64,000 nt of DNA, from positions 26,384 through 90,383 of IMG/VR virus record IMGVR_UViG_3300047476_001402, one strand, 5' to 3'. The position numbers and the translations under genes are program-made. Shown here piece after piece: positions 44,761-49,169 of the stretch (position 1 is the stretch's first letter; every line of letters begins with the position of its first letter). Under the pieces are notes generated by a model. It ran no database searches and had not been told where the DNA came from. It was given only the letters and a program-made list of their open reading frames with translations. This stretch comes from a virus.

Positions 44761-44846
44761 TGGCGGTTCCTAATCGCATCGAACAATTAACCTTTCAGTC
44801 ACCGTGCTTTTCAAGAGCACTTGAGGAGCCAACCTCGGTAGGAACC
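44761..44846 (-). tRNA. tRNA-Ser(TGA)
   Basis: GTGCT-CTTGAAA-AGCAC, long V arm, G73 CCA. Confidence 0.85.
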
Positions 44847-45020
44847 ATATCTTCTATTTACACTCTTCTTTTTTCTTCTGAAAATATTCAACTATATTAT
44901 TTTCCAACTGTCGTTGTTCTTCTTGTTCTACAATATCCTGTGCATTAAGAAAAGTAGCAAAAGAATTTGGTGGAAGATTAAAATATTCTGATAATGTTTT
45001 CATTTTTTCTCCATAATTTT

Positions 45021-45127
45021 TGGTGGACTATATGAGATTCGAACTCACTCGGGGTTGCGCACTCCCTTTCCGATTGCATCATCAGAATCCCCTCTGATTA
45101 ATAACCTCGATGTTAATTAGCTAGCCC
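45021..45127 (-). ncRNA. tRNA-like RNA with G3:U70, no D stem and no anticodon (tmRNA-TLD-like)
   Basis: GGGCTAG/ATAGTCC-A-CCA; GTGAG-TTCGAAT-CTCAT; TCGAGGTT/AACCCCGA helix enclosing two hairpins. Confidence 0.7.
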
Positions 45128-45132
45128 ATTTA

Positions 45133-45729
45133 TTACTTTTTCTTTAAATCGTTCACAAGAACATTCCATTGCCGAGTTAATTCAAATGAACTACATAAAC
45201 CATGTGATCTATGCTGTTCTGCGAGTTTACTGCTCATATTATTTCCAATCTTTATAAGAGTATTAATTTTTTCTAAATATTCGGAGAAATCTTTAATCGA
45301 TAATTCTGTTTTCATTTTCTATCTTTTTTGCAACACATTTACCTTTATTATCAAATACAGAAACTTTAAATCCATGTGCAATCGCATATTCCCATGCTTG
45401 CAGTAGATATTCTCGATACTCCACGCTCATTTCTATGAGTTCATCTCGGTGCCTATCTCTAAGGGTATCGGTATTTATGTCTTTAAAATATTTCATAATT
45501 GTTTATACCAGACACTTAATTTCCAATCAATAGGACTATCGTTAATAGTCTCGATAATTTTCAAATATTTTTGATTACCCATTGCGACACCACGCTTAAC
45601 TGGATATTCATAGACATTGACTTCTACAACATCCATTCGCCACTGTAAACCGTTGTATTGTTTTACAACATAAATTCCAGTATTACGTATATGTCCTATA
45701 CAATAATTGTCCGTATCCTCGATTTTCAT
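45133..45729 (-). other. Three small hypothetical ORFs (45133-45315, 45293-45496, 45493-45729)
   Basis: Overlapping co-oriented ORFs. Confidence 0.5.
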
Positions 45730-45732
45730 TCT

Positions 45733-46455
45733 TCAAATTACTCTAGATTGTGCTATTGTCAAGAACTGTCTCACTTTTTGTAGGTCAAATTTATCTTCTG
45801 TCCTCAACCAAGTCTCTGCATCAATCCAAATCGGAACCTCGATAATCTCGTCCAATTTTTGCAACTGACTCTCTAGGTTCTCAACTGATAAACCTCCTGC
45901 ATAACCCGTGTAAACACCATCCAAAGGCAAATCCCATTCAGAAGGTAGAACCCCCGCACCATGAGATAGATCATAAAGAGCAGAAATGTTACTAATACCC
46001 ATAAGATCAAGTTCATGAATATAGTTATTCACTTTATCATACTGTGCAATAAATTGGATATTCTGGTTATATCCGATGTTTTGTATCAAAACATCTAAAT
46101 CAACTTTATGTTTCTCACCATGAGTATTAATTTGAATACGATCAAACCATTCAGGTTCAAGGTACTCTACAAATGTTAGGCCATGTAACCAATTCTTCTG
46201 TAAGATTTCATTTACATATTCTCCACATAAATGTCCAGATAATTTTAAACTTGCTCCTCCTTCAGTAAGGCGACATTTTTCGAGCTTATATAGCCAATCT
46301 CTAGATGGAAACCTATTCGATTTTCCTGCCTGTCTTTTAGACAGAAGAATGCCCCATTCAACAAATGGAAACTCTTTTTGAATTTCCGCCATTTCCTCAA
46401 TAGAAGTATCATCAGATGCTCCTGTTACTGTTACAGTTTTTAAATATTTTTTCAT
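45733..46455 (-). CDS. TrpF (PRAI)-like TIM-barrel phage protein
   Basis: VTVTGA.D, VEWGILLS, SGHLCG, RIQIN, LYD.S.G.G, GYAGGL, WIDAE. Confidence 0.65.
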   Translation of the reverse strand: MKKYLKTVTVTGASDDTSIEEMAEIQKEFPFVEWGILLSKRQAGKSNRFPSRDWLYKLEKCRLTEGGASLKLSGHLCGEYVNEILQKNWLHGLTFVEYLEPEWFDRIQINTHGEKHKVDLDVLIQNIGYNQNIQFIAQYDKVNNYIHELDLMGISNISALYDLSHGAGVLPSEWDLPLDGVYTGYAGGLSVENLESQLQKLDEIIEVPIWIDAETWLRTEDKFDLQKVRQFLTIAQSRVI

Positions 46456-49107: not shown

Positions 49108-49169
49108 TGATGGACACGATGAGACTCGAACTCACAGTTGGAAACGCACTACCATTATGCTACATGCCC
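49108..49169 (-). ncRNA. Anticodon-less tRNA-like RNA with G3:U70 and A73
   Basis: GGGCATG-TA-GCAT-AATGGTA-GTGC-GTTTCCAACT-GTGAG-TTCGAGT-CTCAT-CGTGTCC-A-TCA. Confidence 0.75.

What the first reader, a model, noticed from the sequence alone, without database searches (positions are those of the whole stretch)
45021..45127. 107-nt tmRNA-like acceptor without an mRNA domain
Seen: G1:C72, G2:C71, G3:U70, A73, CCA; unpaired D region (CTAATTAACA); an 8-bp P2-like helix with one mismatch enclosing ATCAGA/TCTGAT and a second weaker hairpin; canonical T arm. Known: G3:U70 suffices for AlaRS, tmRNA's tRNA-like domain lacks a D stem and binds SmpB, and jakobid mitochondrial tmRNAs lack the tag ORF. Inference: an SmpB-binding rescue RNA that avoids degradation tagging, or a tmRNA antagonist.
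Basis: partly seen in the sequence, partly recalled or inferred. Interest (0 to 1): 0.75.

Follow-up and report, generated by a model that had tools for sequence, protein, structure and literature searches.

The report
Anticodon-less alanine tRNA mimic in phage
A giant freshwater phage carries, among its tRNA genes, a conserved 107-base RNA that keeps the alanine-accepting end of a tRNA but has closed hairpins where the codon-reading parts should be; it is not a recognisable tmRNA, and what it does is untested.

Summary
The element (45021-45127, minus strand) is real. It has a 6-bp acceptor stem with G3:U70, A73, an encoded CCA and a canonical T arm, and it lies co-oriented in the tRNA array of an uncultured phage contig (90 kb, about 34% complete).

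It is conserved:
- a full-length homologue lies in a related phage (L015:46-157);
- a near-identical copy with unrelated flanks lies in a wastewater run;
- a distant homologue lies in the tRNA array of the 735-kb phage LR756501.1.

Across these, the top five acceptor pairs and A73 never change. Three internal hairpins keep pairing through compensatory changes.

No anticodon loop and no conserved tag frame exist. ARAGORN and the Rfam tRNA and tmRNA models do not recognise it. The tmRNA model does score true TLD-only mini-tmRNAs in other phage contigs at 42.5 and 31.4 bits.

Best reading: a non-decoding, tRNA-shaped RNA, probably alanylated. It is not a tmRNA family member, and SmpB binding is untested.

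Notes from this scan describe anticodon-less alanine mimics of other shapes in phages of at least 48 other genomes. The nearest thing in print is the TLD-only tmRNA of mycobacteriophage DS6A.

The parts
45021..45127 (-). Whole tRNA-like RNA gene, 107 nt including the encoded CCA.
   Evidence: Sequence read. R1 scores it 128.3 bits and R2 123.6 bits. It is single-copy in the 90-kb record. A contig of run X4 covers exactly 45020-45133.
45121..45127 (-). Acceptor 5' strand (element positions 1-7), carrying G1, G2 and G3.
   Evidence: Positions 1-5 are identical in this element, L015 and LR756501.1.
45102..45115 (-). Hairpin A (positions 13-26): a 4-bp stem with a 6-nt loop, in the D-arm position.
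   Evidence: RNAalifold predicts it. All cells pair, and 3 of 4 pairs change on both sides. The stem is 6 bp in the LR756501.1 homologue.
45081..45098 (-). Hairpin B (positions 30-47): a 6-bp stem with a 6-nt loop, in the anticodon-arm position. It has no U33 and no 7-nt loop.
   Evidence: Against L015 it shows 4 compensatory double changes and 1 single change, with all 6 pairs kept. The loop is 6 nt here and 5 nt in L015, with a different sequence.
45067..45080 (-). Conserved single-stranded linker (positions 48-61) that ends in GGAAA.
   Evidence: GGAAA is present in all three homologues. Its role is unknown.
45051..45066 (-). Hairpin C (positions 62-77): a GGG/CCC-based stem in the variable-arm position.
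   Evidence: All cells pair, and 2 pairs change on both sides. The X4 variant loses one C of the four-C run, which still leaves three G-C pairs.
45032..45048 (-). T arm (positions 80-96): a 5-bp stem with the loop UUCGAAU.
   Evidence: The stem is the same in LR756501.1. The same T arm with the same 3' acceptor strand recurs in 7 phage tRNA-Ala genes and one phage tmRNA.
45021..45031 (-). Acceptor 3' strand (positions 97-103), discriminator A104 (= A73) and the encoded CCA.
   Evidence: The tRNAs checked in this record encode CCA, whereas the four LR756501.1 tRNAs checked and that phage's homologue do not.
45733..46455 (-). Upstream 240-aa gene of unknown function. It is the syntenic marker used to find relatives.
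   Evidence: It has no Pfam, PHROG or PDB match. In the related phage the element starts 13 nt after this gene.
44761..44846 (-). Downstream neighbour: an unannotated tRNA-Ser(UGA)-like gene. It is context, not part of the RNA.
   Evidence: It has a 7/7 acceptor stem and a T arm, and I read the anticodon loop by eye. In L015 a tRNA-Ser(UGA)-like gene follows the homologue about 25 nt later.

Best explanation
This is a gene for a non-decoding, tRNA-shaped small RNA of a huge phage.

What is shown:
- It sits in the tRNA array, on the same strand as the tRNAs.
- It has a standard acceptor stem plus T-arm minihelix carrying the alanine identity set: G3:U70, G1:C72, G2:C71 and A73.
- Three hairpins (A, B and C) and a conserved GGAAA linker stand where the D, anticodon and variable arms would be.
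- No anticodon loop and no reading frame are conserved.

What is inferred:
- It is co-transcribed with its neighbours.
- It is cut out by RNase P and the 3'-end enzymes as the phage's tRNAs are.
- It is charged with alanine by the host AlaRS, which reads only the acceptor stem.
- Because it cannot pair with a codon, it acts by occupying or diverting factors that read the alanine-type acceptor/T-arm module. Candidates are AlaRS, EF-Tu, the trans-translation machinery, or a host factor aimed at tRNA ends. It does not act by decoding.

It is not a member of the tmRNA family as that family is defined by sequence and structure.
For: A real, selected RNA:
- The homologue at L015:46-157 keeps all four stems that differ, through compensatory changes: 4 double changes in hairpin B, 1 in A and 2 in C.
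- The five-helix fold pairs in 93.3% of cells. It has 7 pairs changed on both sides, and 0 of 500 shuffles reach that.
- A model built without it found the LR756501.1 copy inside that phage's tRNA array (39 bits, E 8.8e-7).
- A run X4 contig matches only the element, with unlike flanks. Contigs of runs X5 and X7 behave the same way for the neighbouring tRNA-Ser region.
- One-base indels in X4 and in L015 rule out a coding constraint.

Alanine identity under selection:
- Between this record and LR756501.1 the top 5 acceptor pairs differ at 0 of 10 positions in the element and in tRNA-Ala(UGC).
- The figure is 4, 4 and 7 of 10 in tRNA-Arg, tRNA-Gly and tRNA-Val with the same anticodons.
- The T arm plus 3' acceptor motif recurs in 7 phage tRNA-Ala genes and one phage tmRNA among 16 pattern hits.

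It follows its genome's tRNA habit: CCA is encoded here and in L015, and is absent in LR756501.1, whose tRNAs also lack it.

Non-decoding: the loop of hairpin B is 6, 5 and 6 nt in the three homologues, differs in sequence and has no U33.

AlaRS reads G3:U70 in the acceptor stem (abstract of PMC8583063, seen in the listing; minihelix charging is recalled).
Against: - There is no expression, end-mapping or charging data.
- Only three full sequences and one low-depth variant (depth 2.4) support the fold. Alignment A4 was fitted to that fold.
- The L015 copy has a 7-nt tandem duplication beside the T arm. It either separates the T stem from the acceptor strand or doubles the T loop, and the first T-stem pair is lost. 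Strict tRNA geometry is therefore not kept everywhere.
- This copy has a G7.A66 mismatch.
- The hairpin A loop has no GG, so the usual D-loop/T-loop elbow contact is not evident.
- The family is rare. It was found in 3 phages among roughly 98 records searched whole.
- The final step, what the RNA competes for, rests on no direct evidence.
Confidence: 0.55

Rival explanations
1. A tmRNA-derived, TLD-only RNA that binds SmpB. It would either rescue non-stop ribosomes without tagging, or titrate SmpB and so inhibit host trans-translation.
For: - The acceptor stem and T arm nearly match those of a phage tmRNA (L116:2326-2728).
- The LR756501.1 member scores 18 bits with the tmRNA model.
- That phage encodes SmpB (179.7 bits).
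- The hairpin A loop holds UCGA in two of three homologues, which recalls the tmRNA D-loop motif (by eye).
Against: - There is no tmRNA-model match for this element or for L015, and no ARAGORN tmRNA call. True TLD-only RNAs score 42.5 and 31.4 bits.
- The P2 helix is not conserved, and the D region is paired.
- Hairpins A and B occupy the space that SmpB fills on tmRNA (PMC4131195 passage).
- LR756501.1 also has its own tmRNA-like gene beside a group I intron, which accounts for its SmpB.
- No SmpB was found in this 34%-complete record.
Confidence: 0.15
2. A processing signal only. A tRNA-like fold kept so that RNase P and the 3'-end enzymes cut the polycistronic array transcript and free the small downstream mRNA. 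The excised RNA itself would have no role.
For: - No promoter or terminator excess lies around the element: 9 promoter-like sites against 7.2 +/- 2.9 in shuffles.
- A small ORF with a Shine-Dalgarno-like GGAG starts 18 nt after the CCA.
- In X4 an ATG follows within a few bases (loose end).
Against: - RNase P does not need G3:U70 or A73, yet these and the top five pairs are invariant while other tRNAs' acceptor stems drift.
- Three internal hairpins and the GGAAA linker are also kept.
- In L015 and LR756501.1 the neighbours are tRNAs, which supply cleavage sites themselves.
Confidence: 0.12
3. An alanine donor or decoy outside translation. Either an Ala-charged carrier for a tRNA-dependent transferase, or bait for a host toxin or nuclease that attacks tRNA-Ala or tRNA 3' ends.
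For: - The alanine determinants are conserved on an RNA that cannot decode.
- The RNA is full-size and tRNA-like, which would suit proteins that read the whole L-shape.
- That such transferases and acceptor-stem toxins exist is recalled knowledge, not tested here.
Against: No partner gene is conserved beside it: the neighbours differ in the three phages. No AlaRS and no TROVE gene was found in the four records searched. Nothing here points to a particular target.
Confidence: 0.15
4. A decaying tRNA pseudogene, for example a former class II tRNA or tRNA-Ala that has lost its anticodon arm.
For: - ARAGORN and Rfam do not call it a tRNA.
- It has a G7.A66 mismatch.
- The L015 copy has a 7-nt duplication in the T-arm region.
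- The single-sequence fold is not exceptional.
Against: Compensatory changes occur in three stems. The copy in X4 is near-identical although its flanks are unrelated. The same architecture occurs in a phage whose neighbouring protein is only 40% identical.
Confidence: 0.03

Closest known systems
TLD-only ('standard, no CDS') tmRNA, e.g. mycobacteriophage DS6A; also CDS-less mitochondrial and plastid tmRNAs
   Same: Both are phage-encoded (or organellar) small RNAs with an alanine-type acceptor stem, a T arm, no anticodon and no tag frame. The DS6A form is reported to inhibit host tmRNA (PMC4131195 and PMC11915505, passages read). This element's acceptor and T arm nearly equal those of a phage tmRNA (L116).
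   Different: The tmRNA model does not match it, although it scores real TLD-only RNAs at 31-42 bits. It has no conserved P2 helix. It has three conserved hairpins, including ones in the D-arm and anticodon-arm positions. It is longer: 105-112 nt, against 81-82 nt for the TLD-only RNAs seen here and about 65 nt for the plastid forms in PMC11915505.
Canonical tRNA-Ala (class I) and class II tRNAs
   Same: It shares G3:U70, A73, a 7-position acceptor stem stacked on a 5-bp T stem, a canonical T loop and a place in a tRNA array. It follows the genome's CCA habit. Like a class II tRNA, it has five helices.
   Different: There is no 7-nt anticodon loop and no U33, and the loop sequence is not conserved. 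The hairpin A loop lacks GG. The spacers between helices are longer than in tRNA: 5-7 nt after the acceptor stem and a 14-nt linker. The tRNA model and ARAGORN do not call it.
T4 RNAC and RNAD (stable RNAs of the T4 tRNA region)
   Same: These are small phage RNAs encoded with the tRNA genes. Their function is still unknown (PMC9697503 passage). That they have tRNA-like ends is my recollection.
   Different: No sequence relation was seen. The blastn search of the phage collection gave only T-arm-length matches to tRNA-Ser genes of T4-like phages. An alanine identity of the T4 RNAs was not checked.
Bacterial Y RNA (YrlA) with Ro/TROVE
   Same: It is a non-coding RNA with a tRNA-like module, found in some jumbo phages together with a Ro protein (PMC7824862 passage).
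   Different: No TROVE gene was found in the 4 records searched, which include the complete 735-kb phage. No Y-RNA family matched in Rfam at E up to 10. The ends here form a standard acceptor stem with NCCA, not a Ro-binding stem.

Membership tests
tmRNA (Rfam RF00023 and clan; includes TLD-only forms) | Alanine-type acceptor stem (G3:U70) with a 3' NCCA and a T arm | tested here: met
   G1-U5 paired with A68-C72, and A73, are invariant in the three homologues.
tmRNA (Rfam RF00023 and clan; includes TLD-only forms) | Recognised by the tmRNA covariance model or by ARAGORN's tmRNA search | tested here: not met
   No tmRNA-family hit at E up to 10 or up to 1. ARAGORN gives none, even with lowered thresholds. 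Positive controls: L117 42.5 bits and L123 31.4 bits; L116 is called a tmRNA. The LR756501.1 member reaches only 18 bits against a gathering score of 47.
tmRNA (Rfam RF00023 and clan; includes TLD-only forms) | Unpaired D-loop analogue followed by helix P2, which closes next to the T arm | tested here: not met
   Only 59.1% of P2 cells pair, and 6 of 8 pairs are broken in at least one sequence. In L015 4 of 8 are kept. The D region forms hairpin A, with all cells paired and compensatory changes.
tmRNA (Rfam RF00023 and clan; includes TLD-only forms) | mRNA-like domain with a resume codon and a tag frame (absent by definition in TLD-only forms) | tested here: not met
   A 10-codon frame from GCA to a UGA in the T stem exists here and in LR756501.1. 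It is out of frame and lacks GCA in L015. It is broken by the 1-nt deletion in X4.
tmRNA (Rfam RF00023 and clan; includes TLD-only forms) | Binds SmpB | not testable with these tools
   No RNA-protein tool is available. Co-occurrence is uninformative: SmpB was found only in LR756501.1, which also has its own tmRNA-like gene, and this record is 34% complete.
Canonical tRNA (Rfam RF00005) | Cloverleaf recognised by tRNA models | tested here: not met
   ARAGORN finds 18 tRNAs and Rfam 14 tRNAs in the window, none of them here. The best clan hit is tRNA-Sec at 17.7 bits, E 0.88.
Canonical tRNA (Rfam RF00005) | 7-nt anticodon loop with U33 and a conserved anticodon | tested here: not met
   The hairpin B loops are 6, 5 and 6 nt, with different sequences and no U33.
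Canonical tRNA (Rfam RF00005) | Acceptor stem stacked directly on the T stem, canonical T loop, 3' end like the genome's tRNAs | tested here: met
   The exception is L015, which has a 7-nt duplication at this junction.
Substrate of alanyl-tRNA synthetase (works like tRNA-Ala at the acceptor end) | G3:U70 with A73 in an acceptor helix; actual charging | tested here: inconclusive
   The determinants are present and invariant. Charging itself cannot be tested here.
Y RNA / YrlA | Ro (TROVE) partner and a Ro-binding terminal stem | tested here: not met
   TROVE was found in 0 of 4 records, although the control genomes ring. No Rfam Y-RNA match appeared.

The most novel reading that the evidence does not exclude
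Huge phages encode a distinct family of full-size, alanine-chargeable tRNA mimics that cannot decode. Charged or uncharged, these would enter the host's translation or ribosome-rescue machinery, or intercept a tRNA-directed defence, as a dedicated phage tool. Together with the differently shaped anticodon-less alanine mimics this scan has noted in many other phages, they would form a broad, undescribed class of phage RNAs built on the AlaRS-readable minihelix.
Probability: 0.25. Interest if true: 0.8.

Novelty: new variant of a known kind. Interest (0 to 1): 0.58.

Why it matters
Phage tRNA arrays are usually read as codon-supply or anti-defence spare parts. A conserved array member that keeps every mark for alanine charging but cannot read a codon does not fit either idea.

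If it is charged, it gives a simple, testable handle on how large phages interfere with AlaRS, EF-Tu, trans-translation or tRNA-directed immunity. It would also extend the one printed precedent, the TLD-only RNA of phage DS6A, to a structurally different RNA.

Practically, standard tRNA and tmRNA finders miss it. The same finders also missed at least one ordinary-looking tRNA in this same array.

Tried and rejected
Hidden tag frame. A 10-codon GCA-to-UGA frame exists here and in LR756501.1, but not in L015, and the X4 indel breaks it. Rejected.

P2-like helix. It can be drawn here but is not conserved. Rejected as the native fold.

Intron-containing tRNA. ARAGORN with introns allowed found nothing at normal thresholds. 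At a 70% threshold it gave three implausible calls, one of which shares the element's 3' end. Rejected.

Y RNA. No TROVE gene and no Rfam match. Rejected.

Phage-encoded AlaRS. None in the 4 records searched.

Paralogues. None in the 90-kb record or the window.

Searches that gave nothing useful:
- megablast of 2.5 kb against phages;
- tblastn of a 568-aa protein;
- the 155-aa neighbour in viral contigs;
- the 60-aa neighbour in the protein collection, which found only itself;
- an exact 30-mer in viral contigs;
- a genome contigs pattern scan, which gave two GC-rich chance-like hits, L017 and L018, that are not homologues;
- R1 on 78 loci around 240-aa homologues, with one weak hit;
- R2 on whole records, where 0 of 39 matched, and of 43 only LR756501.1 plus an ordinary tRNA-Ala and a tRNA-Leu matched.

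Expression. No RNA holder was listed by the look-up of sequencing runs. Run X7 is labelled RNA-Seq but the tool marks it as probably DNA, and it covered the tRNA-Ser region, not the element. This says nothing about expression.

Function of the 240-aa neighbour. No Pfam, PHROG or PDB-sequence match. Its resemblance to a TIM-barrel isomerase motif is only my recollection, and I did not fold it.

Literature. Seven searches surfaced no paper describing this RNA. That is not proof that it is not in print. Supplementary tables of PMC7162821, which list tRNAs and tmRNAs of LR756501.1, could not be opened and may bear on this.
Full report
**What is at the coordinates**

Read on the minus strand, 45127 to 45021 gives a 107-nt sequence. 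Its features are:
- Its ends pair as G1:C, G2:C, G3:U, C4:G, U5:A and A6:U. Position 7 is a G.A mismatch.
- A 5-bp stem closing a UUCGAAU loop directly precedes the 3' strand. An A and then CCA follow it.

The hairpin AUCAGA/UCUGAU is present. The helix 18-25 with 72-79 pairs at 7 of 8 positions in this sequence.

Standard finders do not see the element:
- ARAGORN lists 18 tRNAs and no tmRNA in the window, none of them here.
- In 6 of 7 relaxed option sets it still finds nothing. Only at a 70% threshold with introns allowed does it give three implausible calls.
- Rfam at gathering scores lists 14 tRNAs, none here.
- At E up to 10 on 551 bases the only related hit is tRNA-Sec at 17.7 bits (E 0.88, gathering score 47). 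No tmRNA family appears.
- The minimum-energy fold is ordinary: -27.2 kcal/mol, z = -0.80, and 42 of 200 shuffles fold as well.

**Context**

The window is part of a 90,383-nt IMG/VR virus record rated 34% complete. GC content is about 34%.

The element lies in a co-oriented tRNA array interspersed with small ORFs. A scan for an acceptor stem plus T arm plus CCA shows further tRNA-like genes that ARAGORN misses. One is a tRNA-Ser(UGA)-like gene at 44761-44846, just downstream (anticodon read by eye).

Promoter-like and terminator-like sites around the element are no more frequent than in shuffles. A separate transcription unit is therefore not indicated.

The nearest named relatives, found by a neighbouring 240-aa protein, are the 735-kb and 634-kb uncultured phages LR756501.1 and LR745206.1, at 40% and 35% identity. 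PMC7162821 (passages) places these in a clade predicted to infect Bacteroidetes.

**Homologues**

1. *A related phage.* The 240-aa protein found a related contig at 73% identity that ends 88 nt after the gene. A short-word blast showed the element's first 14 bases right after that gene, and the contig end cuts the copy at 76 nt. A pattern from the shared 5' part found the continuation contig, which gives a full 112-nt homologue at L015:46-157. A tRNA-Ser(UGA)-like gene follows it about 25 nt later.

2. *A wastewater run.* Logan contigs of four runs that hold small shares of the region were laid on it. In run X4 (wastewater metagenome), one 226-nt contig matches 45020-45133 only. It has one substitution (element G78 to A) and one base lost from the C74-C77 run. 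It runs on unlike the window for 103 nt on one side and 10 nt on the other. Depth is 2.4, so the two differences may be errors. Contigs of X5 and X7 behave the same way for the tRNA-Ser region. The element is thus kept like a tRNA while its surroundings are replaced.

3. *The 735-kb phage.* A covariance model built from the first two sequences (R1) found a 105-nt full-length match in LR756501.1 at 366480-366584. It scores 39 bits, E 8.8e-7 for that 735-kb record. It lies in that phage's tRNA array directly after tRNA-Arg(CCU), 5.8 kb downstream of the 240-aa homologue on the same strand.

A three-sequence model (R2) found no further member:
- Of 43 whole records, only LR756501.1 matched, plus an ordinary tRNA-Ala and a tRNA-Leu.
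- 0 of 39 further records matched.
- Of 13 records behind the pattern hits, only the pattern-selected tRNA-Ala and TLD-only genes scored.
- There is no second copy in this record.

The family is real but rare: 3 phages among roughly 98 records searched whole.

**Fold**

Pair-by-pair comparison with L015 gives:

| Helix | Positions | Result against L015 |
|---|---|---|
| Hairpin A | 13-16 with 23-26 | all 4 pairs kept, one A:U to C:G |
| Hairpin B | 30-35 with 42-47 | all 6 pairs kept, four changed on both sides and one on one side; loop 6 nt against 5 nt, sequence different |
| Hairpin C | 62-67 with 73-77 | all 5 pairs kept, two double changes |
| Acceptor | 1-7 with 97-103 | identical, including G3:U70 and G7.A66 |
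| T stem | 80-84 with 92-96 | loses its first pair |

On the three-sequence alignment the five-helix structure pairs in 93.3% of cells. Seven pairs change on both sides, 0 of 500 shuffles reach that, and slid controls pair at 39-49%. That alignment was fitted to this fold. It also misplaces one gap in hairpin B, which is why that helix scores 76.5% there.

The best alternative registers in L015 give at most 4 pairs. The X4 changes fall on its 3' strand with no change on the 5' strand.

The conserved architecture is therefore, in order:
1. acceptor stem;
2. a 5-7 nt spacer;
3. hairpin A;
4. hairpin B;
5. a linker of 13-15 nt ending in GGAAA;
6. hairpin C;
7. two bases;
8. T arm;
9. acceptor 3' strand.

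This is class II tRNA-like in helix count. It has no anticodon loop and no GG in the first loop.

**Alanine identity**

Between this record and LR756501.1 the top five acceptor pairs differ as follows (using):

| RNA | Differences in the top 5 acceptor pairs (of 10 positions) |
|---|---|
| This element | 0 |
| tRNA-Ala(UGC) | 0 |
| tRNA-Arg(ACG) | 4 |
| tRNA-Gly(UCC) | 4 |
| tRNA-Val(UAC) | 7 |

A73 is kept in all three homologues.

A pattern made of the T arm and the 3' acceptor strand found 16 new viral stretches:

| What the stretch is | Count |
|---|---|
| ARAGORN tRNA-Ala genes | 7 |
| 3' end of a phage tmRNA with tag GKKTYALAA, whose acceptor differs from this one at one base | 1 |
| Identical 81-nt TLD-only RNAs | 3 |
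| 82-nt relatives of those with A3:U70 | 2 |
| 151-nt unknown | 1 |
| tRNA-Met | 1 |
| tRNA-Cys | 1 |

The minihelix is thus the one that phages use for alanine-accepting RNAs.

CCA is encoded here and in L015, as in the tRNAs of this record that I checked. It is absent in the LR756501.1 copy, as in the four tRNAs of that phage that I checked. This fits maturation by the tRNA route.

**Is it a tmRNA?**

The tmRNA model gives 42.5 bits (E 4.6e-14) to the 81-nt RNA of L117 and 31.4 bits to L123. Both lack the whole mRNA part. The same model gives nothing at E up to 1 for L015 or for this element. It gives 18 bits for the LR756501.1 member, and that hit did not reappear on a shorter stretch.

A 10-codon frame from GCA to a UGA in the T stem exists here and in LR756501.1. 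It is out of frame in L015, and the X4 deletion breaks it.

LR756501.1 encodes SmpB (179.7 bits). It also has a 344-nt tmRNA-like match abutting a group I intron, so that SmpB already has a partner. No SmpB was found in this incomplete record or in the two contigs of the related phage.

On tmRNA, SmpB fills the place of the missing anticodon stem-loop (PMC4131195 passage). Here that place is taken by hairpins.

On these tests the RNA is not a member of the tmRNA family. Whether it still binds SmpB cannot be told with these tools.

**Other rivals**

- *Y RNA.* No TROVE gene in 4 records and no Rfam match.
- *Pseudogene.* Contradicted by the covariation and by the X4 copy.
- *Pure processing signal.* Possible, but it does not explain the invariant alanine determinants.
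- *Coding.* The only overlapping ORF is 34 aa, and indels among the homologues exclude it.

**What it most likely does**

Shown: it is a conserved, structured, anticodon-less RNA gene with an alanine-type acceptor/T-arm module, sitting in tRNA arrays.

Inferred: it is co-transcribed and matured like a tRNA, and charged by host AlaRS. No AlaRS gene was found in any of the four records.

Open: what the charged or uncharged mimic competes for. I put about 0.55 on the general reading of a non-decoding alanine tRNA mimic that acts by competition. The rivals are scored separately.

The L015 duplication beside the T arm, the G7.A66 mismatch here and the small number of sequences are the main weaknesses.

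**Known and new**

In print are the TLD-only tmRNA of mycobacteriophage DS6A, reported to inhibit tmRNA, and CDS-less organellar tmRNAs (PMC4131195 and PMC11915505, passages). T4 RNAC and RNAD remain of unknown function (PMC9697503 passage).

Earlier notes of this scan describe anticodon-less alanine mimics of other sizes and shapes in phages of at least 48 other genomes, and several tRNA mimics in this same array. These are AI notes. From them I took the lead to one paper, and I checked it.

This element differs from all of these by its five-helix, full-size tRNA-like build and by failing the tmRNA model. I rate it a new variant of a known kind.

Noticed in passing
window 44761-44846 (-): A tRNA-Ser(UGA)-like gene with a 7/7 acceptor stem, a long variable arm and an unusual T loop. 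ARAGORN and Rfam (gathering) both miss it. Contigs of runs X5 and X7 cover just this region, with unlike sequence running on from its upstream end.
   Followed up: partly
window 49111-49169 (-): A 59-nt tRNA match that only Rfam finds (42.1 bits). It also scores weakly with the tmRNA model (13.1 bits) and with R2 (13.4 bits).
   Followed up: partly
G000:C1:8-118 (-), outside the window: A 111-nt tRNA-like gene with a 7/7 acceptor stem, a canonical T arm, discriminator G and CCA. In the anticodon position it has a 7-bp hairpin with a 6-nt loop. This is another over-long, apparently non-decoding tRNA-like RNA.
   Followed up: no
L117:1282-1362, L119:3789-3869 (-), L126:2899-2979: Three identical 81-nt RNAs in phage tRNA arrays. 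They score 42.5 bits with the tmRNA model although they lack the whole mRNA part. They have a G3:U70 acceptor stem, a tmRNA-like D-loop motif, a short P2 and GGAC before the T arm. These are true TLD-only mini-tmRNAs.
   Followed up: partly
L123:1039-1120 and L118 (421-529, -): 82-nt tmRNA-like RNAs (31.4 bits) whose third acceptor pair is A:U rather than G:U.
   Followed up: no
L107:1272-1844 (-) and L105 (LR756501.1): The 735-kb phage encodes SmpB (179.7 bits). It also has a 344-nt tmRNA-like match whose 3' end abuts a group I intron (96.1 bits). This suggests an intron-interrupted tmRNA gene.
   Followed up: partly
L008:3007-3108 (+): An RNA of about 102 nt with a 7/7 acceptor stem including G3:U70, A73 and CCA. 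Its hairpin in the anticodon position carries a T-loop-like UUCGAUU loop, and a long variable region follows. Read by eye.
   Followed up: no
L003:6773-6866 (+): A 94-nt tRNA-Asn(GUU) with a long variable arm, directly after the 240-aa gene. It occupies the position that this element holds in the window's phage.
   Followed up: no
window 45733-46455 (-) and loci L023-L102: A 240-aa protein family with no Pfam, PHROG or PDB-sequence match. It has relatives in 96 viral stretches, often beside tRNA genes. Invariant motifs include GGL and WIDxE.
   Followed up: partly
L015:595-749 (+): A 155-nt match to the tRNA model just under its gathering score (26.7 bits against 29). It may be a tRNA with an insertion or an intron.
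   Followed up: no
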